Source of the DNA: Acidimicrobiales bacterium
GTDB lineage: Bacteria > Actinomycetota > Acidimicrobiia > Acidimicrobiales > Bog-793
Direction: 5' to 3'
Length of the DNA stretch: 64,000 nt
NCBI GenBank assembly: GCA_050744865.1
Contig: JBOGHW010000036.1
Coordinates: 74,785 to 138,784, forward strand
This document shows, one piece after another, positions 6,885-45,203 of the stretch (positions are counted from its first letter, which is position 1; each line of letters opens with the position of its first letter). The translations under genes were made by a program, and so were the position numbers. Under the pieces are notes generated by a model that saw nothing but the letters and a program-made list of their open reading frames with translations, was not told where the DNA came from and did not search any database.

Positions 6885-6915
6885 AGGGCTTGAACCGCCC
6901 GGCCTAGGCGTATCG

Positions 6916-23356: not shown

Positions 23357-23791
23357 CTAGTTCTTGCAGCTGAAGACGGTGCCGCCAGTCGTGAGGACCT
23401 GGTGGGTCTTCAGATAGTTGCGGGCGTAGAACTCGTAGGTCCCGCCACTGCAGTTGAACACTCCCTCTTGTACGACCGAGATCGCTACGTGATTGCCCGA
23501 GTCCCACGAGTTGTCCGTCGTCCACCCGTACCAGTGGTGCGTCTCGTAGTTCTCGATGACTCGGACGACCGAGTTCGCGTCGTCGGACATGTAGGTGGCG
23601 GCCCAGGCGAATGCCTGGCCGTTCACGATGAGCGGAGGGTTCGACTGCTCACCACAGACGCTGTCCTTCGAGATGCAGTGGACGACGTTCTTCGTCGACG
23701 AGAGTGAAGATGCAAAAGCACCGGGCACACCAAGGACGAAGCCCGTCGATAGTCCGACGGCGGCAATGACCGCCACGTTACGGAGTTTCAT
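23357..23791 (-). CDS. Small secreted protein, 4 Cys in the mature part, no recognisable family
   Basis: 144-aa ORF with a Sec signal peptide MKLRNVAVIAAVGLSTGFVLGVPGAFA/SS. The ~116-aa mature part is rich in N/Y/W/T, with Cys at HCISKDSVC, FNCSGG and FSCKN. RBS GGGAGA upstream. It ends 22 nt before the ABC ATPase gene. Confidence 0.7.
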   Translation of the reverse strand: MKLRNVAVIAAVGLSTGFVLGVPGAFASSLSSTKNVVHCISKDSVCGEQSNPPLIVNGQAFAWAATYMSDDANSVVRVIENYETHHWYGWTTDNSWDSGNHVAISVVQEGVFNCSGGTYEFYARNYLKTHQVLTTGGTVFSCKN

Positions 23792-24479: not shown

Positions 24480-26198
24480 TCAGCTCGGCGAAGCGTCGCT
24501 CGGAGACGGTGGCCCCGGCTCCGACGTAGGCGGCGGGGCGGCGGGCTCGTCCGGGCGCGGGGGCCATGAAGGCACTCCCTGGTAAGAGCTAACGGCGCGT
24601 TGCTGCTGGCCGGCGGGCCAGGGCGACGGCCGTGGCGGTCGGTACGGTGGCGGACCCGATTGGGCCGGTGCGTGACCGGCCGATCGCGGTGGGTAGCCCG
24701 AGGGCGGGGGTGGCGGGCCTGCCCCCGGAGGGTACGGGTACTGCGCGTAGGGGTGCTGGGCGTACGGGTGCTGGGCGTACGGGTACTGCGGGTACGGGGA
24801 CGGAGGGTACGGCTGCCGCGGGCCTCCCTGCGGCTGGCCAGGCGGGATCGGCCTGCCCCACTGGTCGGCCTGGATTTGCTGGACCATCACGGAGTCTCCC
24901 CTGAACACAGAGCTCTCGCTCACCTGGCTCTCGATCATGGGAGCGAACAACGTGTACCCGAGAAACAAGACCGCCGAGACAATCTGCACGACGATCCACA
25001 ACGTGCGCGGGCCGCTCGCCGACCAGTCGTTGGTGGCATGGATCAGTGCCCCGAACAGGTAGCCAAAGAGGAACAAGGGGATCCGGTGCTTGCGATATTT
25101 CATCCCCAACCCGATGAAGAAACAGGCGATCCCCGCCCACTCGGCGTGCTGCAGTCCGTCGGTGAAGATGCGCATGCTGAACAGCAGCACGTACTCGACG
25201 ATGAAGTGGGTACCGGGAGCGATGCCGAACAGGTTCTCGTCATTCTGCTGGTAGAGCGCGGCTTCCCGGGCACCGAAGGCGAGCCCGGCGATCGTCCCGA
25301 GGAACATGCAACTGCGGACGGCCAGCGTGCGGCTCAGGAAGAAGCCCAACCCGAGAATCGTCAGCAGAACGGCGCCGTCCTTGGTCGCTTCCTCCGCCAG
25401 CCCGGGCCCGATGAACGAGATGAACCAGTCACCAGCGTGCGTCGTCAAACTCGGAACGGCCCCGTACCACCATTGCAGCGGGCCGGCCATGAAGATGAGC
25501 ACGATCACCGACACGACGGCGCCATAGACGACCAAGGTGCGCGGGGCGTCCTCAGGTTTGATGAGGTGCCAGAACACGACGATCCACAGTGGTGCCGTGT
25601 AGATGGCGTACACCCAGCCCAGAGTCTGGACGTTCGTCGTGTTCCAGAACATCGTCACGAAGATGACGGGCAACAGCGCATAGAAAAGGAAGATCGCTCG
25701 GTAGCCGGCGTGCCAGCCCGAGCTCTCGATCCACGCCCGCCAAGGGAACAGGATCGCCAGTGCTTTCTTGAGATTGCTGGCCCCGGCGCCGGCGAACAGC
25801 GTGTTGCCAGTGGGGCGGTTGCCGACGAGCGGGCTGAGGCTTGCCATCGGTCCGGGGACTCGGCCCGAGCCTGCCGGGCCGAGCCCGACCGGAGCGGCGG
25901 GGCGGGCGGCGGCAACTACGCAGATCTCGACCCACGGCCCACCAGGCGTCGCGAGATGGACCCGCTGGAAGGCTCCGAGGTGCAGCCGCGAGACGGCCTG
26001 GCCGTCCAGGAAAGTACGGCCTGTGCTCAGGTCTTCGAGCACCCAGTTCCCGTCCACCACGCGCGCTACGGCGTGCGCGCGCGACACCATGGGGTCGCTC
26101 AGGAGCACGCTGCTGCCCTCACGGCGGCCGATCGTCACGACGTCTGACTCCGTGAACACGTAGCTGGCCTGGGCCGTGGCTATCTCGAGGCGGAGCAT
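24480..26198 (-). CDS. FHA domain fused to PrsW-family intramembrane protease, with Pro/Tyr-rich tail
   Basis: 572-aa ORF. N-terminal FHA (VVTIGRREGSSVLLSDPMVSRAHAVARVVDGNWVLEDLSTGRTFLDG). Polytopic region with PrsW motifs GLAEEATKDG, GLAFGAREAALY and ALIHATNDW. C-terminal tail YPQYPYAQHPYAQHPYAQYPYPPG... Confidence 0.85.
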   Translation of the reverse strand: MLRLEIATAQASYVFTESDVVTIGRREGSSVLLSDPMVSRAHAVARVVDGNWVLEDLSTGRTFLDGQAVSRLHLGAFQRVHLATPGGPWVEICVVAAARPAAPVGLGPAGSGRVPGPMASLSPLVGNRPTGNTLFAGAGASNLKKALAILFPWRAWIESSGWHAGYRAIFLFYALLPVIFVTMFWNTTNVQTLGWVYAIYTAPLWIVVFWHLIKPEDAPRTLVVYGAVVSVIVLIFMAGPLQWWYGAVPSLTTHAGDWFISFIGPGLAEEATKDGAVLLTILGLGFFLSRTLAVRSCMFLGTIAGLAFGAREAALYQQNDENLFGIAPGTHFIVEYVLLFSMRIFTDGLQHAEWAGIACFFIGLGMKYRKHRIPLFLFGYLFGALIHATNDWSASGPRTLWIVVQIVSAVLFLGYTLFAPMIESQVSESSVFRGDSVMVQQIQADQWGRPIPPGQPQGGPRQPYPPSPYPQYPYAQHPYAQHPYAQYPYPPGAGPPPPPSGYPPRSAGHAPAQSGPPPYRPPRPSPWPAGQQQRAVSSYQGVPSWPPRPDEPAAPPPTSEPGPPSPSDASPS

Positions 26199-29365: not shown

Positions 29366-30016
29366 ATGGCCGACGAGCAACCGGAGCTCCTAGTAACCGA
29401 CGCCGGCGCCTGGCGGGCCTGGCTCGACGCCAACTTCGACGATCCTGTGGGGGTGTGGCTCGTGCTCGCCAAGAAGGGTGCCGTGCAGCCGACCAGCCTC
29501 AAGTACGAGGAGGCGCTCGAGGAGGCACTCTGCTACGGCTGGATCGACGGGCTCCTCCACACTCGCGACGACAGGACCTACAGCCAGCGGTTCACCCCCC
29601 GCAGACGAGCCAGCAAGTGGTCGCAGTCCAACGTGGAGCGCATCGGCCGGCTCACCCGCCAAGGACGGATGCAGCCGTCGGGCTTGGCCGAGGTCGAGCG
29701 GGCCAAGGAAGACGGCCGCTGGGAGGCCGCCTACCCGGGTCGGACCAAGATCGACGTGCCGGCGGATCTGGAGGCAGCCCTGGCCGCTGAGCCCGCCGCC
29801 CAGGCGCTGTTTGCCAGGCTGGACGGCACCAACCGTTACTCCGTGCTCGTCCGCCTCCACAACACCAAGGCACGGTCCAGGCCCAAGCAGATCGAGCGCA
29901 CCGTTGCGATGCTGGCGCGAGGCGAGACGTTCTACCCGCTGCCAACACCGCCGACGCCGACCCCACCGGTCCCACCGGCTCGGTCCGACAACCGGAGCCC
30001 GCAGGAACCGACTTGA
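29366..30016 (+). CDS. YdeI/OmpD-associated family protein
   Basis: ORF 29225.. trimmed to ATG 29366, because the upstream part is the palindromic repeat. Motifs AWRAWLDANFDDPVGVWLVLAKKG and EEALCYGWIDG...FTPRRRASKWSQSNV. Confidence 0.8.
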   Translation: MADEQPELLVTDAGAWRAWLDANFDDPVGVWLVLAKKGAVQPTSLKYEEALEEALCYGWIDGLLHTRDDRTYSQRFTPRRRASKWSQSNVERIGRLTRQGRMQPSGLAEVERAKEDGRWEAAYPGRTKIDVPADLEAALAAEPAAQALFARLDGTNRYSVLVRLHNTKARSRPKQIERTVAMLARGETFYPLPTPPTPTPPVPPARSDNRSPQEPT

Positions 30017-30031
30017 GGGAGGCCCGAGTGG

Positions 30032-31474
30032 CTACGGGCGCTGGACCATCGACTCGAACAGGATGGCGCCCGTGGCATCGTCTCTCACCAGGAAGAGAAA
30101 CGGTCGGTTGAACTCCAACTCCTGCACCTGCACTATCCGCGTGGAGCTCGGTTCAACGCCCACTCCCGTTGCCGCAGCGGCCTTGGTACCGAGTGGAGTG
30201 ACCTGGAGGTAAGCGCGCTGCTCCACGGCCTCGACCTGCAACCCGATCTGGGTCGTGATGCCTCTGAAGTCGGCCCCAGGGCTAAAGGCGTCGCTCATGC
30301 CCATGTTCGAGAGCACGGAGTTGAGACGGTTGTCCGCCGTGATGGTGAACTCAGGCAGGGTCACGCGAACCGGGCGGTTCTGAAGGGCACTCACAATCCC
30401 TGTCAGCGAGGAGGGTGTCATCGAGTGGACGTAACCGGCCAGGCTCCCTGTGGTGGGCATCACGACCAGTGCGCTCATCTTCTTGCCGGCGTAGGGAATC
30501 TCGGCAGCCTCGTATCCATTGCCGAGGACGTAGGGGAGCGACACGGGGTGGTCGCCGCCAGCGACTGACGACTGGATGGTCGGTAGGTCGCTCGTCGACC
30601 CGTCGGCGAAGTGGAAGGGCGCGCTCAGCTCCGAGAAGGCATGCGCCCAGTGCGCTTGGAAGTACACGGCGTCGGCCAGTACGAGCGCTGTCTGGGCGGT
30701 CAGCGCTCCCGGAGAGAAGAGCTGCTTGATCAGGCCTTGCGTCTCGTGGGCAGTCCACTGGTTGATCGAGGCGAGCGCACCTGGGAGGTCGCCGCTGAAG
30801 TCGACCTGCCACACGCCGGCACCGAACTCACTGGACATCGCCCTCACGAAGCCCGGCTCCACGTCAAGGTTGTCCTCCACCCACACGGCATTGGCGATGT
30901 CGAGCTGGGCCTCAGCCCCAAGATGCGCACCAGTACGAGAAGTCTCGTCGGTGAGCAACGTGGACAAGGCGTCCCAGCCCGCCGCCTGCACGCTCGGGGG
31001 GACTCCTGCGGCGTCCAGCGTGTCTGCGATGCCTTGGGCCGTCGACCCCTTGGCGCCGAGCTCGAGCATCGTCAGCGCCGTCGACAGACTGGAAGGCGAC
31101 GCCAGGAGATTGCCCGCTCCGCCGCCGGAGGACAGCTGGTCGAGCAACTGCAAAGAGAAACCGACCTCTTCGCTGGAGACCTCCTTCCTCTCTGCTGGGG
31201 ACGGGGCAGCCGCCCGCGCCACGACGGCAGTCAGCTCCTCGGCCGATCCGACGTGTGCGGTGACTCCGACGTGACCGGCTTGTGCCACGACCGACGGCTG
31301 GGTGGTCGGACGAGCAAAGATCACGATGCCGAGCACCAGCGCCACCACCACAGCGATGGAGCCGGCCGCCGTCACCAGCCAGTGGCGGCGTAGCTCGGTG
31401 CTTCGGGCCTTGGCCCGACTCAGCAAGGCCTCGGGGCTCGCCGGAGTGTAAGTGGCATGGGTCTGGTCAGGCAT
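30032..31474 (-). CDS. Membrane-anchored serpin (short cytoplasmic N-terminus, one TM helix, serpin domain)
   Basis: ORF 30032..31576 trimmed to ATG 31474, which overlaps the sigma stop by 8 nt. TM helix LVTAAGSIAVVVALVLGIVIF. Serpin motifs LLASPSSLSTALTMLELGAKGSTAQ, reactive-centre hinge GTKAAAATGVGVEPSSTR (30131-30190), and NRPFLFLVRDDATGAILFESMV. Confidence 0.88.
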   Translation of the reverse strand: MPDQTHATYTPASPEALLSRAKARSTELRRHWLVTAAGSIAVVVALVLGIVIFARPTTQPSVVAQAGHVGVTAHVGSAEELTAVVARAAAPSPAERKEVSSEEVGFSLQLLDQLSSGGGAGNLLASPSSLSTALTMLELGAKGSTAQGIADTLDAAGVPPSVQAAGWDALSTLLTDETSRTGAHLGAEAQLDIANAVWVEDNLDVEPGFVRAMSSEFGAGVWQVDFSGDLPGALASINQWTAHETQGLIKQLFSPGALTAQTALVLADAVYFQAHWAHAFSELSAPFHFADGSTSDLPTIQSSVAGGDHPVSLPYVLGNGYEAAEIPYAGKKMSALVVMPTTGSLAGYVHSMTPSSLTGIVSALQNRPVRVTLPEFTITADNRLNSVLSNMGMSDAFSPGADFRGITTQIGLQVEAVEQRAYLQVTPLGTKAAAATGVGVEPSSTRIVQVQELEFNRPFLFLVRDDATGAILFESMVQRP

Positions 31475-31958
31475 GGAGCTCACGTACCGAGCCTTCCTCG
31501 AAGTCTGGGCCCAAGCTCGACCGGAGCGAGGCCAGGGCGCGGTGAAGGTGGGTCTTGACAGTGCCGGCCGAGACACCCAGTGCAGACGCGACGTCGGGCT
31601 CGGAGAGGTCGCAGATGTAGCGGAGGACGACTGTTTCTCGTTGACGTCGCGGCAGATGTGCCAAAGCGGCCGCCAGGGCCCGCCGCAAGACGACTGCGTC
31701 CGCCTCGTCTCCGGCCTGCGTCGGGACTGGCAAGAGCGGGTGGCGACCGAGGTGCCGCAACGCTTCGCGGGAGGCGACTTTCAGCAGCCAGGCGTCCCGC
31801 CACTCGAGCGACCCAACCCTTGCCCAACGGGCGTGTGCCTTGGCCATGGCCTCGACGGCGACATCCTCGGCCGTCCACGGGTCGCCCGTGACGCGGCGCG
31901 CTACCCCGATGGTCCGCGGCAACATCCTGGCGAAGAACTCCTCAAACGTCTCGGCCAT
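31467..31958 (-). CDS. ECF-type RNA polymerase sigma-70 family factor
   Basis: 163-aa ORF with region 2 (VARRVTGDPWTAEDVAVEAMAKAHARW) and region 4 HTH (RETVVLRYICDLSEPDVASALGVSAGTVKTHLHRALASLR). Confidence 0.9.
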   Translation of the reverse strand: MAETFEEFFARMLPRTIGVARRVTGDPWTAEDVAVEAMAKAHARWARVGSLEWRDAWLLKVASREALRHLGRHPLLPVPTQAGDEADAVVLRRALAAALAHLPRRQRETVVLRYICDLSEPDVASALGVSAGTVKTHLHRALASLRSSLGPDFEEGSVRELHA

Positions 31959-32026
31959 CAGTGAAGTAAAGCCTCCGCACGGCCTGTTTGGTTGACACGG
32001 GCATCAGGTGCCGCCAGGAAATTAGG

Positions 32027-33004
32027 ATGCGGGCGATGAAGGCAGCCGTCTATTACCAGACCGGAGACCCCAGCGTCTTCAGCTACGAGGACGTCCCCGA
32101 TCCTGTTGTCTCGAGCGATCACGTCCTGGTCAAGGTCGAGGCTGTGAGCATCGAGGGTGGCGACACCCTCAGTCACAGCCGCGGTGACCTGTTCGCCGTC
32201 CCGCACATCGTGGGATACCAGTGCGCGGGCACCGTGGTGGGGATCGGGCCCAAGGTGGTCGGCCTCGCAGCCGGCGATCGCGTCGTGACCACAGGTCTCG
32301 ACGGATCGCACGCCGAGTTGCGAGCCGTGCCCGAGGGCTTCTGCTGGAAGCTGCCCGAGTCGGTGAGCACCGAAGAAGGAGCCTGTATTCCGGTCGCCTA
32401 CGGCACGGCCCATGACTGCCTCTTCGAGTTCGGCCACCTGGAACAAGAGCAGTCGGTGCTCATCCAAGCCGGCGCCAGCGGGGTAGGGATTGCCGCCATC
32501 CAGATGGCCAAGCAAGCCGGCGCCCGCGTGCTGGCCACTGCTTCTCGGGACGACAAGCTGGAGCGGCTGAAGGCGCTCGGGCTCGACGCCGGCATCAACT
32601 ACACGACCTCCGACATGGTGAGCGAGGTCCGGCGACTCACTGCCGGCCAGGGCGTCAACCTCGTACTCGAGTCTCTCGGCGGCACCAACCTGCAAGCCAG
32701 CCTCAACTGCCTGGCTTACAGGGGCCGTTGCGTGTCGATCGGGGACGCCGGGCGTCCCGGCACGACTTCGATCGACACGTCGGTGATGCGCCCCAACAAC
32801 TTGACTCTCACCGGCTACTTCCTCGGGATGGAGCTCTTCATGGGCCAGCGCGCCCGCCAGATGATAGCCGGCCTCCTCGATGAGCTGGCTGCCGGAAAGC
32901 TCCGGGTGTTGATCGACAAGCGGTTCCCTCTCTCCGAGGCGGCCGCCGCCCACTCCTACATCGAGGGGCGGGAGGCGTTCGGTCGCGTGCTGCTCATACC
33001 GTAG
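32027..33004 (+). CDS. Zinc-type alcohol dehydrogenase / NADPH:quinone oxidoreductase family protein
   Basis: ORF trimmed to ATG 32027 (alternative start 32036, MKAAVYY...). MDR-family pattern with nucleotide-binding motif QAGASGVGIAAIQMAKQAGARVLATAS. Confidence 0.88.
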   Translation: MRAMKAAVYYQTGDPSVFSYEDVPDPVVSSDHVLVKVEAVSIEGGDTLSHSRGDLFAVPHIVGYQCAGTVVGIGPKVVGLAAGDRVVTTGLDGSHAELRAVPEGFCWKLPESVSTEEGACIPVAYGTAHDCLFEFGHLEQEQSVLIQAGASGVGIAAIQMAKQAGARVLATASRDDKLERLKALGLDAGINYTTSDMVSEVRRLTAGQGVNLVLESLGGTNLQASLNCLAYRGRCVSIGDAGRPGTTSIDTSVMRPNNLTLTGYFLGMELFMGQRARQMIAGLLDELAAGKLRVLIDKRFPLSEAAAAHSYIEGREAFGRVLLIP

Positions 33005-34335: not shown

Positions 34336-35247
34336 TCAGCTGGCCGGGATCGGCGCGGCCGCAGGCAGGTCCTTCAGCTGTGCGGTCGCAGCCACGACTC
34401 CGGGCGAGTCGCAGACGCTGGCCGGACGCCCGCCGTCGACGGCGCAGATGGCCGCCGTCAGGTAATTGGCGTTGGCATCGATCTCCCGTGCCACCGGGCT
34501 GCTCGGGTTCGACAGATCGTCGGCGATCTGGATCCGGGTGAGCCCGGCGAGGTACTGAGGGTTGTCCCAGTTCGGCAAGCCACCGGTGTAGCGGTTGCCG
34601 ATGTACAAGAACGGGATGCTCACGCCCGGGTTCCATGCGCCGAGGATCGTGTCCTGCTCGGCGGTCGGGTCCTCCAGCGGTTGACGCGACACCGTCTCCA
34701 CCTCAACCGGCGAGAAGCTGATGTACGGGCTCGTGTAGGTCGACCCGGCGAAGCTGAATGTCTGCGTGTTCGGGTACACGTCGGTCGGGTCCGACGCCGA
34801 GGCAACAACGCCTGAGAATGTGCCGAAGCGATCGAGCGCCAGGAGCAGCGACCAACGTTCCGTGGCGCAGTAGGGGCAAAACAGCGCCCCCACGAACAAG
34901 AACACCGGCTTCCCGTCGACCTCGGCGAGCTGGGCCGAACTTGGCGTCTTGATGACGTTGACAGGGTTGACACCGGTGTACTGGGACGCCGGCTGCCCTC
35001 CGATCCCGACGGTGTCCAACACCGAGGCAGGCACAGCGGCGATCTTGGCGAGGGCCGGAGCCAGGTCGCCGGGAACCGTTGATGTCGTGGCACCGGCAGC
35101 GGGCGCCGCGGTGGGCGCCGTAGTCGCCCGCGGCCCTTGCTTCGATGCCCCGGAGGTAACGGCGATCAGCACGATGGCCAGCACGATGGCCAGCACCGCG
35201 GAGCCGGAGGCAATGCCGATCTTGGTGGTGGACGCCCGGTTTGCCAT
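34336..35247 (-). CDS. DUF929-family membrane-anchored thioredoxin-like protein
   Basis: 303-aa ORF with an N-terminal TM anchor (GSAVLAIVLAIVLIAV) and the characteristic FVGALFCPYCATERWSLLLALDRFGTF motif. Confidence 0.8.
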   Translation of the reverse strand: MANRASTTKIGIASGSAVLAIVLAIVLIAVTSGASKQGPRATTAPTAAPAAGATTSTVPGDLAPALAKIAAVPASVLDTVGIGGQPASQYTGVNPVNVIKTPSSAQLAEVDGKPVFLFVGALFCPYCATERWSLLLALDRFGTFSGVVASASDPTDVYPNTQTFSFAGSTYTSPYISFSPVEVETVSRQPLEDPTAEQDTILGAWNPGVSIPFLYIGNRYTGGLPNWDNPQYLAGLTRIQIADDLSNPSSPVAREIDANANYLTAAICAVDGGRPASVCDSPGVVAATAQLKDLPAAAPIPAS

Positions 35248-35400
35248 GAGACGAGAGAGTTTGCCAGCTCACAAGGCGGGCGTGAACGCGGCCAAGTTAC
35301 CCGGCGGTAGCCGAGGGTGCCGCCACCGGCTATTGTCGGAAGCTCCGGTCGCGGGGGGAAGACGGCCGGATCACGATTCAGTTCATTGGGGGTTGTTGCT

Positions 35401-36186
35401 ATGCAAACGAAGTGGAAGATCCGGATGGGCGCGCTTGGCGTTCTGGCCGCTGCGGCGGCCATGGCTGCCGGCTCGAGCCCGGCCATGGCGGCGGCATCAG
35501 GCCATGGCGCCGGCGTAAGCGTCCGCACTGCTACGGCGCACGCCGTTCACCACGGCGCCCACAGCATCCAGACGTCGTCCAACTGGTCCGGCTATGCCGA
35601 GACGGGCTCGGGGTACACCTCGATAGCCGGCGACTGGACGGTGCCGACCAGCAAGGGCAAGGGGGGCAACAAGTACCAGGCAGAGTGGCTCGGTATCGAC
35701 GGCGACGGCAACCAGCACCTCATCCAGACAGGAACGCAGGTCGACGAAAGCGGAGGTTCGGCGAGCTACGGGGCATGGTGGGAGATCCTCCCGGCGGCCG
35801 AGACGCCGATCAACGAGCCCGTGTCTCCCGGTGACCAGATCGAGGCGTCGATCGTGAAACAGAGCTCCGGCAAGTGGCTCATCACCCTCGAGGACGTCGG
35901 CCGCTGGACATTCACGATCACCAAGAGCTACTCCGGCCCCGGCGCCAGCGCCGAGTGGATCGTCGAAGCTCCCGAGGTGGGCGGCTCCATCGCCAGCATG
36001 AACCATACGAGCAAGGTCACCTTTGACGACCTGACGGTGAACGGCGCCAACCCGGAGCTCGTCTACGCGACCGACGCCATCGCTTGCAAGCAGGACAAGA
36101 AGATCGTCGAGTCGCCCTCAGAGCCTACTGGCGGCAATTCGTTCGCTATGGCCTATGGGGCCAAGACACCCAAGGCACCCGCCTAG
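35401..36186 (+). CDS. Secreted peptidase G1 (eqolisin / peptidase A4) family protein
   Basis: ORF trimmed to ATG 35401. Signal peptide ending PAMAAA. Hallmark motifs SSNWSGYAE, AGDWTVP, AEWLGIDG, SASYGAWWEILP, GASAEWIVEAP. Confidence 0.85.
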   Translation: MQTKWKIRMGALGVLAAAAAMAAGSSPAMAAASGHGAGVSVRTATAHAVHHGAHSIQTSSNWSGYAETGSGYTSIAGDWTVPTSKGKGGNKYQAEWLGIDGDGNQHLIQTGTQVDESGGSASYGAWWEILPAAETPINEPVSPGDQIEASIVKQSSGKWLITLEDVGRWTFTITKSYSGPGASAEWIVEAPEVGGSIASMNHTSKVTFDDLTVNGANPELVYATDAIACKQDKKIVESPSEPTGGNSFAMAYGAKTPKAPA

Positions 36187-36299: not shown

Positions 36300-37100
36300 T
36301 TAGTAGCTGGTGACCGTCTTGGTCGTACCGATGACGATCGACGGGTGGACGGAGGGATTCATCCAATCGAGCGCGGCGTCCAGGTCGGCCAGCGGGAGGC
36401 TCACGCAACCGGCCGTCGGACCGCCGATATCCGCGTGCAGGAAGATGGCCGACCCACGCCCAGGAGTCCTGCGCGGGTTGTAGTTGATGACAGCAAAGGA
36501 TGGGTAAGCGACGGTCTCTTGCCAGAGTCGTTCCGAGGACCCGTTGTTGAACGGTGGGTTCGTGTCCGAACAGGGGACGTGGACGAACTCGTTGTACCGC
36601 GACGAGCTCGAATCCTCGTCCCACCAGTCGCCGCAAGCAAGACGATGGTAGGTGTACTGGACACCCGGGTTGGCGGCGTTGCCGTACATCGTCGCCTGGA
36701 ACCCGTAGATGCCGGCCGGCGTCGTGCCGTCACCCTCGTGCTTGTCGATGCTGATGCCGTTGTAGCCGACGCGGGCGGTCCACGGCCCTGCTGCCCGCTT
36801 CCAGCAGGAACCGTCCAACTGGAACGTGGTCAGCGTGGCCGAGGTGTCCGAGGACGCGCCCACCACCACGAAGATCAACTGCTTGCCCACCTTGTGCTTC
36901 AAGCGTGAAGCCAGCGTCGACGGGCAGCTGGACTTGGCCTGCAGGGGGCGCTCTGCGCGGCGCGTCATCGCCGTGCCACGACTCTCTTGCGCCATCGCGT
37001 TCACCGTGCCGGCCGCCGGCGCCCGGTCCGACACCGTCGCGCACGAAGCTGCAGCCAGGCAGACCAGGAGCAAGCAGACGGCGATGGAGGCGCGGCGCAT
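36300..37100 (-). CDS. L,D-transpeptidase family lipoprotein
   Basis: ORF trimmed to ATG 37100. Lipobox LAAASC. Catalytic motif GSAIFLHADIGGPTAGCVSL (His...Gly-Cys). Confidence 0.85.
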   Translation of the reverse strand: MRRASIAVCLLLVCLAAASCATVSDRAPAAGTVNAMAQESRGTAMTRRAERPLQAKSSCPSTLASRLKHKVGKQLIFVVVGASSDTSATLTTFQLDGSCWKRAAGPWTARVGYNGISIDKHEGDGTTPAGIYGFQATMYGNAANPGVQYTYHRLACGDWWDEDSSSSRYNEFVHVPCSDTNPPFNNGSSERLWQETVAYPSFAVINYNPRRTPGRGSAIFLHADIGGPTAGCVSLPLADLDAALDWMNPSVHPSIVIGTTKTVTSY

Positions 37101-37207
37101 CGGGTAATGGGACTCCTGACTGTCCATCCCAGTGAAGCACGTTGCCCCGAGTGGTCGCCAGCCTCTCGGAAGCAGGATCGTCGCGGCAATGGCTACGGTC
37201 TACATCC

Positions 37208-38403: not shown

Positions 38404-38525
38404 GCCGACACTGTTGTAGCGCGCTGGGCGGCTCAGTGGCTAAGGCTGCCTCGGTGCAGGTTGGCGGGCCGCGGCGGCAGCGGCGGCGGCGGCGGCGACA
38501 GCGGCAGCGTATGCGCGGCCTCAGC

Positions 38526-38664
38526 GGCGGCGTATCGGAAGCTGAGGAGCTGAGCTCCCGCCTAGAGGGAGATTCTCTCCTCGGGTTGGCGGCGGGTGGC
38601 GGCGTATCGGAAGCTGAGGAGCTGAGCTCCCGCCTAGAGGGAGATACTCTCCTCGGGTTGGCGG
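38526..38664. repeat. 72-bp direct repeat x2 in a divergent intergenic region
   Basis: GGCGGCGTATCGGAAGCTGAGGAGCTGAGCTCCCGCCTAGAGGGAGAT(T/A)CTCTCCTCGGGTTGGCGG occurs at 38526 and 38598 with one mismatch. Each copy contains small hairpins (GGAGC-TGA-GCTCC). Confidence 0.9.
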
Positions 38665-38765
38665 GTTGGCGGTTGGCGGGTTGGCGGTTGGCGGTTGGCG
38701 GGCCGGCGGCGGTCGGCGGGCGGCGGTTGGCGGTTGGCGGGCCGGCGGCGGTTGGCGGGCGGCGC
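38652..38765 (+). repeat. G-rich GGTTGGC/GGCGGGC heptad-like tract (strand-asymmetric)
   Basis: CTCGGGTTGGCGGGTTGGCGGTTGGCGGGTTGGCGGTTGGCGGTTGGCGGGCCGGCGGCGGTCGGCGGGCGGCGGTTGGCGGTTGGCGGGCCGGCGGCGGTTGGCGGGCGGCG. It has seven or more GGG runs on the plus strand and ends ~50 nt before the S53 peptidase start. Confidence 0.85.
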
Positions 38766-40800: not shown

Positions 40801-41340
40801 GTGCCGACCACGGGGGAGGCGGCCATCGTGGCGGTCCGCGCCCTGGCGCGGGCGGCGCGCCTGATCGAGCGGGCGTCGGAGGAGCTGAACTTCGCCCACT
40901 ACCGCGTGCTGGCGGCCGTCGCCTCGGGAGACGAACGCGCCTCACGGGTCGCCGCTCGGCTGGCGCTCGGCAAGCCCACAGTGAGCGCCGCGGTCGAGTC
41001 CCTGTGCCAGCGCGGGCTGCTCTCCCGAAGCGGTCTGGCAAGCGACCAGCGGGTGGCCACCCTGAGATTGACTGCCGAGGGCGAGGCCGTCCTGCAGCGG
41101 GTCGAGGCTGCCATGACCTCCGTGCTCGGCGACATCTTCAGCCGCACCCCCGACGCCGACCAAGTGCTGCAGTCACTCGCGTGGCTCGGCACCGCCATCG
41201 ACGAGCGACGAGCCGCTCACCACGCCGGACGGCGCACCCAGCCGGAGCGGCCGGGCGAGCCAGGACAGCCGGAGCAGCCGGGCGAGCCAGGGCGGCCGGG
41301 CGAGCCAGGGCGGCCGGGCGAGCCAGGACAGCCGGGGTGA
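40801..41340 (+). CDS. MarR-family transcriptional regulator with a C-terminal PGEPG repeat tail
   Basis: 179-aa ORF with GTG start. Winged HTH ASRVAARLALGKPTVSAAVESLCQRGLLSR. Tail [32 protein letters not shown]. Confidence 0.85.
   Translation: MPTTGEAAIVAVRALARAARLIERASEELNFAHYRVLAAVASGDERASRVAARLALGKPTVSAAVESLCQRGLLSRSGLASDQRVATLRLTAEGEAVLQRVEAAMTSVLGDIFSRTPDADQVLQSLAWLGTAIDERRAAHHAGRRTQPERPGEPGQPEQPGEPGRPGEPGRPGEPGQPG
41241..41337 (+). repeat. 18-bp tandem repeat (CCGGGCGAGCCAGGRCRG) encoding the PGEPG tail of MarR
   Basis: Units at 41251, 41278, 41296 and 41314, plus partial units. The repeat ends at the GTGA overlap with the ABC exporter start. Confidence 0.85.
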
Positions 41341-44300
41341 GCGAGCAGGCCAAGGCGCCAGGATGGGTCCGTCGGCTCTGGGGACACATGCTCCGCCACA
41401 AGCGGGACGTCGCGCTCAGCTTGTGCGGCGCAGTCCTTGGCAGCGCCTGCCTGACGCTGGTGCCTCTCGTCGAGCGCCAGATAGTCGACGGTGTCATACT
41501 CACACACTCGTCGGCCCTCTGGCCCTGGATCACCCTCCTACTCGTACTCGGAGCAGGCGCTTTCGGCGGCGCCTACCTTCGCCGCTTCCGGGGCGGCCGG
41601 GTCGCCCTCGCAGTTCAATACGACCTGCGCAACGACATGCACGACCACTTGCAGGCAATGGACTTCGAGAACCTCGACAGGATGCCGACCGGCCAGCTGG
41701 TCGCCCGCGCCAACTCCGACTCCACGTTGGTGCAAGGGCTCCTGAGCTTCTTCCCGATCATGAGCGGCAACGTCCTGTTGATGTTCCTCTCGCTCGGCGT
41801 CATGGTCTACCTCTCGCCCCTGCTCGCGATCGTGAGCCTGGTCGTCGTGCCGGCCCTGCTCGTCGTGTCCTACAGGATGCGCTGGCGAATCTTCCCGGCC
41901 ACCTGGGACGGCCAGCAACGAGAAGGGGACGTCGCACAGATCGTGGACGAGGACGTCAACGGGGTGCGTGTGGTCAAGGCCTTCGGGCAGGAGCACCGCG
42001 AGCTGGAGCGAGTGGCCGGCGCCGCGGCGGTCCTGTACGGCTCCCAGATGAGAGCCGTCCGCCTGCAGTCCCGCTACCAGCCGGTTCTCGAAGCCATCCC
42101 TGTCGTCGGCCAAGTTGCGATCCTGGCTCTGGGCGGTTGGCTGGCTCTCCGCCATGAGATAACGCTCGGCACGTTCCTCGCCTTCTCGACTTACATCGCC
42201 CAGCTCATGGCTCCGGCCCGCCAACTGGCAGGCGTGCTCACCATCGGCCAGCAAGCAAGGGCTGGGATCGAGCGCATCTTCCAGCTTCTCGACTTGAAGC
42301 CGGCCGTCCGCGACCGGGACGACGCCATCGAGCTGGCCGAGCTGCGGGGGGAAGTCGACTTCGAGGGTGTCCACTTCGCCTACGGGGAGGGACACCCAGT
42401 CCTGCAAGGGGTCGATCTGCACATCGACGCCGGCGAGCATGTCGCCCTCGTCGGGGCGAGCGGGAGCGGGAAGTCGACGGTGGCAACGCTGGTGTCGCGG
42501 TTCTATGACCCGAACCAAGGGGCAGTCCTCGTGGACGGGCTCGACGTGCGCGACGTGTCGCTCGCTTCGCTGCGGCGACAGGTCGGCATGGTCTTCGAGG
42601 AGAGCTTCCTGTTCTCCGAGTCGGTGCGGGCCAACATCGCCTACAGCCGTCCGGACGCCACCGACACAGAGGTCGAGGCAGCCGCGCGGGCTGCCCAGGC
42701 CCACGAGTTCATCGAGGCGCTTCCTCGCCGATACGACACCGTCGTCGGCGAGCGGGGGCTAACCCTGTCCGGTGGGCAGCGGCAGCGCATCTGCCTCGCC
42801 CGGGCGATCCTCTCGGACCCGCGCATCTTGATCCTCGACGACGCCACGAGCGCAGTCGACTCCCGGATCGAAGAGTGCATCCACGACGCCCTCCGCTCGG
42901 TCATGGCCAACAGGACGATGATCCTGGTCGCCCACCGCCGCTCGACGCTGCACTTGGCCGACCGGATAGTCCTCGTGGAAGGCGGACGGGTTCTGGAGCA
43001 GGGCACGCACGAGTACCTCCTCTCCACGAGCGCTGCCTACCGGATGCTGCTGTCGGGGCTCGAAGAGGGCGAAGCCCAGGAAGTCGGCGACAACATCGAG
43101 TCGCTTGCCACGATCGCCTCACGAGTGCAGGCCGGCGGCACGACCGAGGCAGCCTGGGCAGGCGGCAGCAAAGGCGACCGGGCCAGCGCCAGGCAAGCCA
43201 CGATGGAGTCAGTGCGTGCGCCGAGCATCGGAGCCGGGCTGGGCGGCGGGGGCGGCGGCTGGCGCCGCAACCTGGCGCCGACCCCTGAGCTGTTGGCACG
43301 CGTCGACGCCCTCCCGCCTGTGAAGGACTTCCCCACCGTCGATCTGGCCGCCGAGTCTCGCCACGACAAGGCCTTCAGCTTGCGCAGGCTGGTCTACGAG
43401 TTCCGCAAGCCCTTGCTGGTCGGGCTCGTCCTCGTGGTGCTCGACGCGCTGGCGTCGCTGTCCGGTCCTGTGCTCGTCAAAGTTGGTATCGACAGCGGGG
43501 TGTCAGCCGGATCCGAAGGCGTGCTGTTCGCGGCCTCAGGTGTCTACCTTCTCATAACGCTGCTCGATCTCGTCGACGAGATCGGCGAGACGTTCATCAC
43601 CGGTCGCGTCGCCCAACGCGTCATGATGTCGCTCCGCATCCGCATCTGGGCCCAGCTGCAGCGGTTGTCGCTCGACTACTACGAGCGCGAGATGGCCGGG
43701 CGGATCATGACGCGGATGACCACCGACGTCGACCAGTTCGAGTCTCTCATCGAGAACGGCTTGCTGTCGGCTCTTGTGTCAATAGTCACGTTCGTCGGCG
43801 TCGGCGTCGCCCTCGTGCTCATCAACCCCGAGCTAGGGCTGTGCACGTTGACAGTCGTGGTGCCACTTGCGGCTGCCACCGTCGTCTTCCGCCGCAAGGC
43901 CGCACGCTTGTACGACCTGTCGCGTGAGCGGATAGCCATCGTCAACGCCGACTTCCAGGAGAGCCTCTCCGGCGTCCGCGAGTCTCAAGCTTTCGTGCAC
44001 GAGAGCTGGACGCGACAGCGCTTCCACCGGCTGGGCGGCGACTACCTCGAGTCCCGTGTCGCCGCCCAGCGCCTCGTCGCCGTCTACTTTCCCTACGTCC
44101 AGTTCCTTTCGGCGGCAGCCGACGCCATCGTGCTCGGGGTGGGTGCCGGGCTCATCGCCCGTGGCGACCTGCAGGCTGGTGCCCTTATCGCCTTCATCCT
44201 CTACATCGACTTGTTCTTCTCGCCCATCCAGCAGCTGTCCCAGGTCTTCGACGCTTGGCAGCAGACCCGCGTCTCGGTGTCCCGCATCTCCGAGCTGATG

Positions 44301-45203
44301 CAATTCGACACCCTGACGCCTCCGGCCGCCGACCCTGTACCGATCGACCGGCTGCAAGGTGGCGTCAGTCTGCAGGCCGTCCGCTTCGCCTACCCGTCTG
44401 CGCCGGGCTTCGGTGCCCCGGGCGGTGCCGGCGGCAGGCCGACCGAGCGCCGCGGACCGGCGGACGCCAGGCGCTTGCAAGCCGCCGACGCCGTAGCGGC
44501 CAAGCCACCGGAGGCGCTGCGGGGCATCGACTTGGACGTCCGGCCCGGCGAGACCGTCGCCCTCGTCGGGGAGACAGGGGCGGGAAAGTCGACGGTGATG
44601 AAGCTGGTCGCTCGTTTCTATGACCCTGGAGAGGGACATGTCCGCATCGACGACCACGATCTGCGCACCCTCGACCTGCCGTCGTTCAAGCGCCAGCTCG
44701 GCTACGTGCCGCAGGAAGCGTTCCTGTTCTCCGGGTCGATACGCGACAACATCGCCTACGGACGGCCCCTCGCCTCCGACGCCGAGGTGGAGGGCGCCGC
44801 CCGTTCCGTCGGTGCCCACGACTTCGTGGCGGAATTGCCGGGCGGCTACTTGCACGAGCTGACCGAACGCGGCCGGTCCCTATCGGCGGGACAACGCCAA
44901 TTGATAGCCCTCGCCCGGGCCGAGCTCGTCGATCCGGCCATCCTCCTGCTCGACGAAGCAACTTCGAACCTCGACCTCGTCACCGAGGCGCGCGTCTCAG
45001 CTGCCATGCAGAAGGTCTCACGAGGCAGGACGACGATCCTCATCGCCCACCGGCTCCAGACAGCTCGCCAGGCCCACCGGATCGTCGTGCTCGACCACGG
45101 CCAGGTCGTCGAGGTTGGGTCGCACGAGGAGCTTCTCGCCGCCGCTGGGGCCTACGCCTCGATGTGGGAAGCCTTCGACCTCGTGGGCAGCCGGGCAAGT
45201 TGA
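41337..45203 (+). CDS. Fused full-length ABC exporter (TMD-NBD-TMD-NBD)
   Basis: ORF 41004.. trimmed to GTG 41337, overlapping the MarR stop (GTGA). Two type-I exporter TMDs. NBD1 has [17 protein letters not shown] and [15 protein letters not shown]2 has [17 protein letters not shown] and [12 protein letters not shown]. Confidence 0.92.

What the first reader, a model, noticed from the sequence alone, without database searches (positions are those of the whole stretch)
30032..31958. ECF sigma factor translationally coupled to a membrane-anchored, inhibitory-type serpin in the anti-sigma position
The sigma gene stop (TGA 31467-31469) overlaps the ATG (31472-31474) of the next gene (ATGCCTGA), forming a two-gene operon isolated by divergent and convergent neighbours. 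The partner has three parts: a ~30-aa cytoplasmic N-terminus (..PEALLSRAKARSTELRRHW), one TM helix, and a complete extracytoplasmic serpin domain. The N-terminus and TM helix match the layout of the single-pass partners that follow actinobacterial SigE-type ECF sigma genes. The serpin's reactive-centre hinge (GTKAAAAT, small residues at P12-P9; 30131-30190) fits the inhibitory consensus. Serpins are suicide substrates that change conformation irreversibly when a target protease cleaves the loop. A serpin as the sensory domain of an anti-sigma-like protein would therefore be a plausible one-shot protease sensor feeding an ECF response. Alternatively it is a sigma-controlled surface protease inhibitor. 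I know of no characterised ECF group whose partner carries a serpin domain; this is from memory and needs checking. The same window encodes several secreted peptidases and a PrsW-type site-1-like protease.
Basis: partly seen in the sequence, partly recalled or inferred. Interest (0 to 1): 0.75.

Follow-up and report, generated by a model that had tools for sequence, protein, structure and literature searches.

The report
Sigma factor paired with membrane-anchored serpin
A soil actinobacterium encodes a small gene switch (an ECF sigma factor) directly coupled to a membrane protein that has a short inner tail linked to the sigma factor and an outer protease-trapping serpin domain. This looks like a previously undescribed way for a cell to display, and perhaps sense with, a protease inhibitor.

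Summary
A 163-aa SigE-type ECF sigma gene (31467-31958, minus strand) overlaps by 8 nt the start of a 480-aa protein (30032-31474). That protein has a 32-aa cytoplasmic tail, one TM helix, a linker and a full inhibitory-type serpin.

The pairing is not chance. 24 related loci from Acidimicrobiia and Actinomycetes keep sigma directly upstream, nearly always with start/stop overlap, behind a conserved ECF-type promoter. None of 127 serpins with ordinary secretion signals has a sigma.

Sigma homologues 47-60% identical carry the same tail motif (D/E-x-LL-x-R-x-K-x-R-S...RR) and TM helix, but fused to other ectodomains (DUF929, DUF4232, an unnamed Cys-rich domain).

In two lineages that deleted sigma, the serpin, TM helix and hinge stay intact but the tail decays. 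Tail-core identity is 0.41 against 0.83 for the serpin domain. With sigma present the values are 0.69 against 0.57.

The tail is therefore most likely a minimal anti-sigma element, and the serpin is one of several swappable ectodomains. The serpin also works without sigma.

Protease-triggered sigma release is plausible but untested. I found no paper describing this pairing. No PrsW-type protease was found among the roughly 40 large window ORFs scanned.

The parts
31967..31996 (-). ECF-type promoter GTCAAC-N19-CTTTA. The sigma ATG lies 8 nt after it, so the mRNA is probably leaderless.
   Evidence: This is the only match in the 64-kb window (0.02 expected). GTCAAC and the ATG are invariant at fixed spacing in 14 loci with different upstream genes. 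No sigma-70-type promoter is found in 29900-32100.
31467..31958 (-). ECF sigma factor gene, 163 aa, SigE-type. Region 2 is at 31743-31934 and region 4 at 31521-31682.
   Evidence: Pfam Sigma70_r2 and Sigma70_r4_2; NCBIfam TIGR02983 at 132.6 bits. 119 homologues were found, named 'SigE family' by their sources.
31467..31474 (-). ATGCCTGA: the partner start codon overlaps the sigma stop codon (translational coupling).
   Evidence: Read directly from the sequence. An overlap of 4-35 nt is present in 19 of 21 sigma-bearing loci, and of 17-20 nt in L168 and the P0061 locus.
30032..31474 (-). Partner gene, 480 aa: tail, TM helix, linker and serpin.
31379..31474 (-). Cytoplasmic N-tail, res 1-32. The core motif PEALLSRAKARST is res 14-26 (31397-31435). 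This is the proposed sigma-binding element.
   Evidence: L17, L18 and R20 are invariant in 20/20 sigma-bearing relatives and are encoded by 3-4 synonymous codons. The motif is shared with DUF929, DUF4232 and unnamed-domain partners of homologous sigmas. It decays where sigma is deleted. AF2 predicts a helix over res 14-53, with pLDDT 86-93 when sigma is well folded.
31310..31378 (-). Single transmembrane helix, res 33-55, N-in.
   Evidence: The Kyte-Doolittle 19-mer maximum is 2.75 at res 36-54. The cytoplasmic flank carries +5/-1 charges and the outer flank none. No conserved AxA cleavage site follows it.
31163..31309 (-). Extracytoplasmic linker, res 56-104, with the conserved motif G-S-A-x-E-L-T-A (res 76-83, inside 31223-31258).
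   Evidence: The motif is conserved across groups A and B, and also in lipoprotein-type relatives.
30035..31162 (-). Serpin domain, res 105-480.
   Evidence: Pfam PF00079, E = 4e-78, profile 5-369/370. The best solved relatives are 8gxv_A (1e-47), conserpin and PAI-1.
30101..30196 (-). Reactive-centre loop. The hinge GTKAAAAT (P15-P8) is at 30167-30190. The canonical P1-P1' is Ser443-Ser444.
   Evidence: The loop aligns without gaps to 8gxv_A and to conserpin up to P1. Positions were counted. The hinge is conserved and the P4-P4' residues are variable among relatives.

Best explanation
This is a self-contained, autoregulated two-gene module.

**Transcription and coupling.** An ECF-type promoter (GTCAAC-N19-CTTTA) drives a probably leaderless mRNA. 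The mRNA encodes a SigE-type ECF sigma factor and, translationally coupled to it, a single-pass N-in membrane protein.

**The tail (inferred).** The partner's short cytoplasmic tail (core ...P-E-x-L-L-x-R-x-K-x-R-S...R-R, running as a helix into the membrane) is the element that binds and holds the sigma factor. It would be a minimal anti-sigma, closest in style to the class II two-helix clamps CnrY and NepR.

**The ectodomain.** It is a complete serpin with an inhibitory-type hinge, displayed on the cell surface as a protease trap.

**How it would work (inferred).** Extracellular serine proteases attack the serpin loop or the juxtamembrane linker. This destabilises the partner. Regulated proteolysis then frees sigma, and sigma re-induces its own operon. 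The cell thus replaces consumed surface inhibitor in proportion to protease attack.

**Shown here.**
- The anatomy.
- Conserved coupling and a conserved promoter.
- Modular reuse of the tail and TM helix with other ectodomains.
- Sigma-dependent conservation of the tail.
- Autonomy of the serpin in sigma-less lineages.

**Inferred.**
- Sigma binding.
- Inhibition by the serpin.
- Protease-triggered release.
For: 1. **Adjacency.** 24 loci with tail-bearing serpins have sigma directly upstream on the same strand. They come from Acidimicrobiia, Jatrophihabitans and Pseudonocardiales. None of 127 serpin loci with lipobox or signal-peptide N-termini does.
2. **Coupling.** Start/stop overlap is present in 19 of 21 loci.
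3. **Promoters.**
   - Group A has GTCAAC-N19-CTTTA with the ATG 8 nt downstream, invariant in 14 loci.
   - Group B has TGCAACC-N16-CGTGTCTTG.
4. **Modularity.** Sigmas 47-60% identical have overlapping +1 partners with the same tail motif and TM helix but other ectodomains. These are DUF929 (L167), DUF4232 (L170) and an unnamed Cys-rich domain (L169, L171). All sit behind the same promoter.
5. **Natural knock-outs.** In sigma-less lineages mean pairwise identity is 0.83 for the serpin, 0.69 for the TM helix, 0.72 for the linker, and only 0.41 for the tail core. With sigma present the values are 0.57, 0.51, 0.40 and 0.69. Three degenerate tails were used to predict loss of sigma, and all three predictions were correct.
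6. **Selection acts on the protein.** The invariant residues L17, L18 and R20 use 3-4 synonymous codons.
7. **AF2 of sigma fused to partner residues 1-62.**
   - pLDDT 87.9 and pTM 0.77. The tail block rises from 61 to 93 once sigma has an alignment.
   - The sigma conformation superposes best on anti-sigma-bound closed forms: CnrH-CnrY 4.7 A, RpoE-NepR 5.3 A.
   - RNAP-bound forms give 21-27 A.
8. **Hinge.** G-T-x-A-A-A-A-T is conserved, and the loop aligns ungapped with inhibitory serpins.
9. **Precedent.** The Bifidobacterium serpin is membrane-anchored. In B. breve it is induced by proteases through an adjacent two-component system (PMC8012564).
Against: - The tail is only about 32 aa with one predicted helix. 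That is shorter than any characterised anti-sigma domain.
- No known anti-sigma profile matches it.
- The sigma-less lineages keep an intact serpin. One member (P0025) still has a nearly intact tail. The serpin clearly functions without sigma, so the tail could have another role.
- The AF2 run used an artificial covalent fusion with no alignment for the tail. No contact map was available, and AF2 may close free ECF sigmas anyway.
- No site-1 or site-2 protease and no target protease is conserved nearby. No PrsW was found in the window.
- Sigma and serpin distances correlate only weakly within group A (r = 0.17). The correlation is 0.93 in group B and 0.69 overall.
- P17 is Pro in group A instead of the usual Glu.
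- How loop cleavage would be transmitted through a roughly 50-aa linker is unexplained.
Confidence: 0.5

Rival explanations
1. The tail and TM helix are the anti-sigma element, but the serpin is not the sensor. It is an effector fused to the anti-sigma. Sigma would be released by some other envelope cue, or simply titrated stoichiometrically. The fusion would only ensure that the inhibitor is made and anchored together with its regulator.
For: - The same tail and TM helix occur with unrelated ectodomains, so the release mechanism may be generic and independent of the ectodomain.
- The serpin stays intact without sigma.
- No protease partner is conserved nearby.
Against: In characterised single-pass anti-sigmas the ectodomain is usually the input domain, for example RsiV binding lysozyme (PMC5014341). 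A suicide-substrate domain that proteases attack by design is an obvious input.
Confidence: 0.27
2. The serpin is only a sigma-controlled surface protease inhibitor. It is the main regulon member, co-transcribed with its sigma. The N-terminus is merely a signal anchor, and sigma is regulated elsewhere.
For: - The two genes form an operon behind a sigma-type promoter.
- No anti-sigma domain is recognised.
- The serpin persists without sigma.
- Membrane-anchored serpins exist in bifidobacteria (PMC8012564).
Against: - A plain signal anchor does not need a 20-aa motif that is the best-conserved part of the protein.
- A plain anchor would not be shared with non-serpin partners of homologous sigmas.
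- A plain anchor would not decay exactly when sigma is lost, while the TM helix stays conserved.
Confidence: 0.17
3. The N-terminal 55 residues are a long cleaved Sec or Tat signal peptide (RR-H-W-L in the window protein), and the serpin is simply secreted.
For: Arg pairs precede the hydrophobic segment. Actinobacterial signal peptides can be long.
Against: - The hydrophobic segment is about 22 aa with a Kyte-Doolittle mean of 2.75, which is typical of a TM helix.
- No AxA-type site is conserved after it.
- The consensus RRHRLL does not fit the Tat pattern RR-x-hydrophobic-hydrophobic.
- Signal-peptide n-regions are not conserved motifs, and their conservation would not depend on a neighbouring sigma.
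- Relatives that really are secreted use a lipobox or short signals and lack sigma.
Confidence: 0.05

Closest known systems
SigE-family (TIGR02983-type) actinobacterial ECF sigmas with single-pass +1 partners; clade ECF38/39/51/222 of Casas-Pastor et al. 2021 (PMC7826278)
   Same: - All the sigmas examined here have TIGR02983 as by far their best match, at 124-145 bits.
- The +1 gene encodes a single-pass protein with a short cytoplasmic segment.
- The paper notes that putative anti-sigmas are similar across this clade.
   Different: - The window sigma scores just below the family cut-off.
- Its ECF group could not be assigned because no ECF-group models are on hand.
- I found no description of a serpin ectodomain. 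The paper's supplements were not available.
RsiV-sigmaV (Bacillus, Clostridioides): an anti-sigma whose ectodomain is a receptor for a hostile enzyme
   Same: The logic is the same. The ectodomain of a single-pass anti-sigma directly engages an attacking enzyme (lysozyme). This triggers regulated proteolysis, and the freed sigma induces resistance to that enzyme (PMC5014341, PMC4183432).
   Different: - RsiV is a non-covalent receptor with a larger cytoplasmic anti-sigma domain.
- Here the ectodomain is itself an inhibitor that would consume the enzyme.
- The cytoplasmic part is about 32 aa.
- Nothing here has been tested experimentally.
Class II anti-sigma domains (CnrY-CnrH, NepR-EcfG)
   Same: - These are very short, helical sigma-binding elements that clamp a closed sigma (PMC6101532).
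- CnrY is also single-pass.
- The AF2 model's sigma conformation superposes best on CnrH-CnrY (4cxf_A, 4.7 A) and RpoE-NepR (5uxx_C, 5.3 A).
   Different: - There is no sequence similarity.
- Group A tails have one predicted helix, not two.
- CnrY needs a separate periplasmic sensor (CnrX) and has no functional ectodomain (my own knowledge).
Bifidobacterial serpin (BL0108 / B. breve ser operon)
   Same: - It is an actinobacterial serpin anchored in the membrane by its N-terminus and retained on cells.
- In B. breve it is autoregulated and induced by proteases through an adjacent signalling system (PMC8012564).
   Different: - The regulator is a two-component system or LacI-type control, not an ECF sigma.
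- The serpin is not fused to a regulator-binding tail.
Prokaryotic inhibitory serpins with solved structures (8gxv_A; the engineered conserpin) and PAI-1
   Same: The domain is full length, the hinge G-T-x-A-A-A-A-T is the same, and the loop aligns without gaps.
   Different: - Those proteins are soluble.
- The window protein has a TM anchor, a 50-aa linker, Pro at P17 and a loop 5 residues longer than conserpin on the prime side.

Membership tests
Serpin superfamily (PF00079, MEROPS I4) | Full-length serpin domain | tested here: met
   Pfam profile positions 5-369 of 370, E = 4e-78. 148 PDB serpins match at E <= 1e-20.
Inhibitory serpins | Hinge consensus: P15 Gly, P14 Thr/Ser, P12-P9 small residues (Ala/Gly/Ser) | tested here: met
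   G429-T-K-A-A-A-A-T436. It is conserved in sigma-bearing and sigma-less relatives.
Inhibitory serpins | P17 Glu | tested here: not met
   P17 is Pro in the window protein and in group A. It is Glu in several group B members. Not strictly required for inhibition (my own knowledge).
Inhibitory serpins | Forms an SDS-stable covalent complex with a target protease | not testable with these tools
   This needs biochemistry.
ECF (group 4) sigma factors | Only regions 2 and 4, about 160-200 aa | tested here: met
   Sigma70_r2 and Sigma70_r4_2 in 163 aa. The AF2 model matches ECF sigma structures.
SigE-fam_strep (TIGR02983) | Score at or above the curated cut-off of 141.55 bits | tested here: inconclusive
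   The window sigma scores 132.6 bits, below the cut-off but 60 bits above the next family. The group B sigma of L011 scores 145.4, above the cut-off.
ECF sigma/anti-sigma operon | Anti-sigma gene adjacent to and co-transcribed with sigma, behind an autoregulated ECF-type promoter | tested here: met
   Overlap in 19/21 loci. Conserved -35 GTCAAC/GCAACC and -10 CSTTTA/CGTGTC. Autoregulation itself is inferred.
ECF anti-sigma factors, class I domain (zf-HC2, RskA, RsdA and similar) | Recognisable three- or four-helix anti-sigma domain of about 80 aa | tested here: not met
   Pfam and NCBIfam find nothing outside the serpin. The tail is only 32 aa.
ECF anti-sigma factors, class II (CnrY/NepR-like) | Short two-helix clamp on a closed sigma | tested here: inconclusive
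   One predicted helix, res 14-53. The closed sigma conformation is nearest to CnrH-CnrY and RpoE-NepR. Contacts could not be inspected.
ECF anti-sigma factors (any class) | Binds its sigma and blocks RNAP association | not testable with these tools
   Support is indirect only: sigma-dependent conservation of the tail and reuse of the tail with other ectodomains.
RIP-controlled anti-sigma factors (RseA/RsiW/RsiV type) | Site-1 then site-2 (S2P) cleavage releases sigma | not testable with these tools
   No S2P or PrsW was found in the window ORFs scanned. The rest of the genome is unknown.
Cleaved Sec/Tat/lipoprotein signal peptide (rival) | Short n-region, h-region of 7-15 aa, AxA site or lipobox | tested here: not met
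   The n-region is 32 aa and conserved. The hydrophobic segment is about 22 aa. There is no conserved cleavage motif. Relatives with a lipobox exist and lack sigma.

The most novel reading that the evidence does not exclude
The serpin ectodomain is the input device of the anti-sigma factor, acting as a one-shot suicide-substrate sensor. Attack by an extracellular serine protease on the reactive-centre loop causes covalent trapping and the irreversible stressed-to-relaxed transition. This marks the membrane protein for proteolysis and releases the ECF sigma, so the cell counts protease hits and replaces spent inhibitor. More broadly, the roughly 20-aa tail motif would define a new minimal class of ECF anti-sigma element used with interchangeable ectodomains in Acidimicrobiia.
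Probability: 0.3. Interest if true: 0.85.

Novelty: new variant of a known kind. Interest (0 to 1): 0.7.

Why it matters
ECF sigma/anti-sigma pairs are a major bacterial route for sensing the outside world, but for most groups the input signal is unknown. Here the ectodomain has a known biochemical activity and a known class of ligand (serine proteases). That makes the input directly testable, which is rare.

If the serpin is the sensor, it would be the first signalling use of the serpin conformational switch in bacteria. It would also be a compact protease-inducible genetic switch.

If it is not the sensor, the module still shows three things:
- a minimal, portable tail-plus-TM element that appears to tie membrane proteins to a sigma factor;
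- a natural deletion series that supports this link;
- a surface-anchored serpin family in abundant, uncultured peat and soil Acidimicrobiia, where extracellular proteases are ecologically important.

Tried and rejected
2. **Mixed alignments of sigma-only and serpin-only rows.** MAFFT mis-aligned them, so they were not used.
3. **Single-sequence AF2 of the fusion.** Uninformative, pLDDT 51.
4. **Profile search with the 10-sequence tail alignment against 5.8 billion proteins.** No hit at E <= 0.1. The roughly 45-position profile has no statistical power at that database size, so this says nothing about distribution.
5. **Literature.** Searches for serpin with ECF, anti-sigma or sigma factor gave only coincidental co-mentions. 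The supplements of the ECF reclassification paper are not held, so I could not check whether serpin appears in any group's listed gene context.
6. **Other regulon members.** I searched the window for more copies of the promoter and found only the copy in front of sigma.
7. **Amphipathicity of the tail helix.** Not different from shuffled sequence.
8. **PrsW.** Not found among the ORFs scanned.
9. **Predicting sigma status from tail integrity.** Correct for 6 of 7 look-ups. P0025 has a fairly intact tail but no sigma.
10. **Overlapping reading frames as the cause of tail conservation.** Rejected. The overlap covers only the first 3-6 codons.
Full report
**1. What is in the window**

On the minus strand, an ORF at 31467-31958 encodes a 163-aa protein.
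- Pfam finds Sigma70_r2 (res 9-72) and Sigma70_r4_2 (res 93-145).
- The best NCBIfam model is TIGR02983 'SigE family' at 132.6 bits. The cut-off is 141.55, and the next family scores 71.

The sigma stop codon TGA (31469-31467) lies inside ATGCCTGA. The ATG of that string (31474-31472) starts a 480-aa ORF that ends at 30032.

In that protein Pfam finds one domain. Serpin covers res 105-479, profile positions 5-369 of 370, E = 4e-78. Upstream of the serpin domain:
- Residues 1-32 are polar and basic.
- Residues 33-55 are strongly hydrophobic. The Kyte-Doolittle 19-mer maximum is 2.75 at res 36-54.
- The charge balance is +5/-1 on the N-side and 0 on the C-side, which indicates an N-in single-pass anchor.
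- Residues 56-104 form a linker.

The flanking genes are a divergent Zn-dependent dehydrogenase and a convergent YdeI/OmdA-type gene.

The window also holds a Peptidase_A4 (G1) gene and two S8-type genes. I found no PrsW-type protease among about 40 ORFs scanned.

**2. The serpin**

phmmer against the PDB gives 148 serpins at E <= 1e-20. The best are 8gxv_A (1e-47), conserpin and PAI-1.
- The reactive-centre loop aligns without gaps to 8gxv_A.
- The hinge is G429-T-K-A-A-A-A-T436, with P15 Gly, P14 Thr and P12-P9 Ala. This is the inhibitory pattern.
- P17 is Pro rather than Glu.
- Counting from P15 gives P1-P1' = Ser443-Ser444. The loop is 5 residues longer than conserpin on the prime side.
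- Among relatives the hinge is fixed (GT[TK]AAA[AV]TG). P4-P4' varies, with Thr, Ser or Ala typical at P1.

Inhibition itself cannot be tested here.

**3. The architecture is a family, and the sigma adjacency is conserved**

A protein search returned about 120 relatives. Most are 480-490 aa, align over the full length including tail and TM helix, and come from Acidimicrobiales metagenome-assembled genomes and peat or soil metagenomes. More distant members (36-43% identity) come from Jatrophihabitans and Pseudonocardiales.

I fetched 160 loci from genome and metagenome collections, plus 11 by exact-protein look-up. A sigma profile was built from the family. It also detected unrelated ECF sigmas elsewhere in these loci, so it is not blind to divergence. 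Results:

| Class of serpin locus | Loci | Sigma status |
|---|---|---|
| Tail-bearing, sigma intact | 24 | Sigma directly upstream, same strand |
| Tail-bearing, sigma lost | 17 | Only a remnant of sigma |
| Tail-bearing, at a contig end | 3 | Cannot be judged |
| No tail | 127 | None has a sigma upstream |

- Of the 127 tail-less loci, 62 have a lipobox, 61 have other signal-peptide-like N-termini and 4 are cut by a contig end.
- Eleven more sigma/serpin pairs are inferred, because the sigma and serpin clusters share identical longest-contig lengths.
- In 19 of 21 loci examined, the partner start overlaps the sigma stop by 4-35 nt, usually behind a GGAGG inside the sigma 3' end.
- A neighbour-joining tree of the serpin domain puts all tail-bearing serpins in one clade. 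I call the Acidimicrobiia members 'group A' and the Actinomycetes and other members 'group B'.
- Sigma and serpin distances correlate overall (r = 0.69; 0.93 in group B; only 0.17 in group A).

Apart from the pair itself, gene neighbourhoods differ from locus to locus. No protease gene is conserved beside it.

**4. A conserved promoter**

Upstream of every group A sigma lies GTCAAC, then 19 nt, then C(C/G)TTTA, then 8 nt, then the ATG.
- GTCAAC and the ATG are invariant at fixed spacing in 14 loci whose upstream genes differ.
- The window copy is at 31967-31996. It is the only match in 64 kb, against 0.02 expected by chance.
- The distance to the ATG and the lack of a Shine-Dalgarno sequence imply a leaderless transcript.
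- Group B loci carry a textbook ECF promoter, TGCAACC-N16-CGTGTCTTG, followed by a Shine-Dalgarno sequence.
- No sigma-70-type promoter is detectable anywhere in 29900-32100, including in front of the serpin.

Together with the 'AAC' -35 element typical of ECF promoters, this fits an autoregulated sigma-partner operon. Autoregulation itself is an inference.

**5. The tail and TM helix form a module shared with other ectodomains**

The sigma search gave orthologues at 66-87% identity and a tail of homologues at 45-64%. I looked up the genomic context of five of these homologues.

| Sigma (identity to window) | +1 partner |
|---|---|
| P0168 (63%) | Tail + TM + serpin |
| P0180 (60%) | DUF929 protein; reading frame extends upstream to a TTG overlapping the sigma stop; tail MEPSDFEQIDPATMDALLARTKSRSAKLQHH... 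|
| P0206 (51%) | ...SRDELLDRVVRRGRQLRQRRQ + TM + unnamed Cys-rich domain |
| P0224 (49%) | ...TRDALVQSVMARGRTLRRRR + TM + the same unnamed Cys-rich domain |
| P0240 (47%) | A DUF4232 protein with a similar tail |

All five loci carry the GTCAAC promoter. The ten tails align on [D/E]-x-L-L-x-R-x-x-x-R-[S/G]-x-x-L-R-R. All these sigmas have TIGR02983 as their best model.

A conserved cytoplasmic segment and TM helix joined to interchangeable outer domains, always in the +1 position of homologous sigmas, is the signature of an anti-sigma family. The ECF reclassification paper notes that putative anti-sigmas are similar across the actinobacterial clade ECF222/51/38/39 (PMC7826278). I could not assign the ECF group.

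**6. A natural deletion series**

*First lineage.* One sub-clade of group A has an aminotransferase gene upstream. It appears in many independent peat and bog assemblies: L002, L006, L007, L081-L088 and L161-L164. It retains only the last 20-41 codons of sigma, or nothing detectable.

*Second lineage.* L003 and L091, close relatives of the sigma-bearing L103, carry an in-frame internal deletion that removes roughly sigma residues 11-113.

The serpin gene is intact in all of them, with an unchanged hinge. Mean pairwise identities:

| Region | Sigma-less (10 proteins) | Sigma-bearing (20 proteins) |
|---|---|---|
| Serpin domain | 0.83 | 0.57 |
| Linker | 0.72 | 0.40 |
| TM helix | 0.69 | 0.51 |
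| Tail core (res 14-26) | 0.41 | 0.69 |

The tail is thus the best-conserved segment when sigma is present and the worst-conserved when it is absent.
- L17, L18 and R20 are invariant in 20/20 sigma-bearing proteins.
- In the sigma-less proteins they are replaced in different ways (HT, LV, PL, SA; R to W or Q).
- The invariant residues are encoded by 3-4 synonymous codons, so selection acts on the protein.
- The gene overlap covers only the first few codons and cannot explain the pattern.
- I predicted sigma status from tail integrity before looking. All 3 'degenerate' predictions were sigma-less and 3 of 4 'intact' predictions were sigma-bearing. The exception is P0025.

Caveat: the sigma-less set represents only two independent loss events, and no formal branch test was run.

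This gives two conclusions. The tail is functionally tied to sigma, and the membrane-anchored serpin has a function that does not need sigma.

**7. Structure prediction**

I therefore modelled a fusion of sigma with partner residues 1-62.
- Without an alignment the model was poor, pLDDT 51.
- With 94 sigma homologues as the alignment, and none for the tail, mean pLDDT was 87.9 and pTM 0.77.
- Partner residues 14-53 form one continuous helix.
- The block covering partner residues 18-27 rose from pLDDT 61 to 93.

Foldseek of this model against the PDB superposes the whole sigma as follows:

| Comparison structures | rmsd |
|---|---|
| CnrH-CnrY (4cxf_A; TM-score 0.62 over 150 columns) | 4.7 A |
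| RpoE-NepR (5uxx_C) | 5.3 A |
| SigW-RsiW (5wuq; TM-score 0.60) | 7.1-7.6 A |
| RseA-, MucA- or RskA-bound sigmas | 12-13.5 A |
| RNAP-bound ECF sigmas | 21-27 A |

CnrY and NepR are the short 'class II' two-helix clamps (PMC6101532). This fits a minimal clamp-like anti-sigma, but it is weak evidence:
- the fusion is artificial;
- no contact map or coordinates were available;
- AF2 may close free ECF sigmas regardless.

**8. How it most likely works**

*Shown:*
- a conserved, probably autoregulated, translationally coupled sigma-partner operon;
- an N-in single-pass partner;
- a tail whose conservation depends on sigma and which is reused with other ectodomains;
- an inhibitory-type serpin outside the membrane.

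*Inferred:*
- The tail sequesters sigma at the membrane.
- Extracellular serine proteases attack the bait loop and are trapped, or cut the roughly 50-aa linker once the inhibitor is saturated.
- The damaged partner is then removed by regulated proteolysis.
- Sigma is freed and re-induces the operon, replenishing the surface inhibitor.

Two known systems show that each half of this logic exists.
- RsiV is an anti-sigma whose ectodomain binds the attacking enzyme lysozyme and thereby triggers its own proteolysis (PMC5014341, PMC4183432).
- The Bifidobacterium serpin is membrane-anchored. In B. breve it is induced by proteases through an adjacent two-component system (PMC8012564).

The main alternative keeps the tail as anti-sigma but treats the serpin as a fused effector rather than the sensor. 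A second alternative treats the protein as only a sigma-controlled inhibitor. A cleaved signal peptide is unlikely.

Serpins trap enzymes that form an acyl intermediate. The neighbouring G1 peptidase is therefore not a candidate target (established biochemistry). The S8 enzymes could be, but they are not conserved neighbours.

**9. Novelty**

Full-text searches combining serpin with ECF, anti-sigma or sigma factor found no description of such a pairing. All examples come from uncultured genomes, which may explain this.

ECF/anti-sigma modules with varied ectodomains are a known kind. A serpin ectodomain joined to a roughly 20-aa tail motif is a new variant of that kind.

**Scores.**
- Interest: 0.7.
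- Probability that the serpin really is a one-shot protease sensor: about 0.3.

Noticed in passing
window 34336-35247 (-); L167 3476-4513: The window has a DUF929 protein with a plain N-terminal TM or signal segment and no sigma beside it. In L167 a DUF929 homologue carries the same tail motif as the serpin partner and sits in the +1 position of a sigma 60% identical to the window's. The gene caller had started it 58 codons too late.
   Followed up: partly
L169 3494-4321; L171 2997-3836: An unnamed extracytoplasmic domain of about 130 aa, rich in Cys and with no Pfam hit (motif C-x-NS-x-D-x-ACGP-x-x-W after a Thr/Ser/Pro-rich spacer). It recurs as the ectodomain of tail-bearing partners of two different sigma homologues.
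   Followed up: no
window 31955-31996 (-) and 13 related loci: The sigma start codon sits 8 nt after the -10-like element in all group A loci. This implies a conserved leaderless transcript. Group B relatives instead have a Shine-Dalgarno leader.
   Followed up: partly
window 38467-38764: A dense block of tandem repeats lies in the 5' part of the long ORF that carries a weak S8-type peptidase hit. It includes a 72-nt unit present 1.9 times at 98% identity, plus GGTTGGC-type 7-39-nt units. The real start of the peptidase is probably downstream, near MNRPHPRTLPAC.
   Followed up: partly
window 35317-36186 (+) and 36300-37127 (-): A secreted Peptidase_A4 (G1 glutamic peptidase) gene is divergent from the DUF929 gene. 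Next to it is a lipoprotein-type YkuD L,D-transpeptidase. YkuD genes also lie 1.5-3 kb from the serpin in L163-L165, but in a different arrangement.
   Followed up: no
window 41004-45203 (+): A 1399-aa ORF encodes two complete ABC exporter halves (two ABC_membrane and two ABC_tran domains) fused in one polypeptide.
   Followed up: no
window 23357-23791 (-): A small (144-aa) secreted protein with a signal peptide and several Cys residues. It was not included in any family search. Its first-codon-position GC is unusually low for this window (0.52).
   Followed up: no
window 4080-7124 (-) and 24480-26198 (-): Two other signalling genes: a 1014-aa adenylate/guanylate cyclase fused to a STAND-type NTPase, and a 572-aa FHA-domain protein.
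   Followed up: no
L003 3691-3840; L091 2691-2840: In two independent assemblies the sigma gene carries a clean in-frame internal deletion. The first roughly 10 codons are joined to the last roughly 50, while the promoter and the downstream serpin stay intact. How the serpin is transcribed there, if the promoter depends on the lost sigma, is unexplained.
   Followed up: partly
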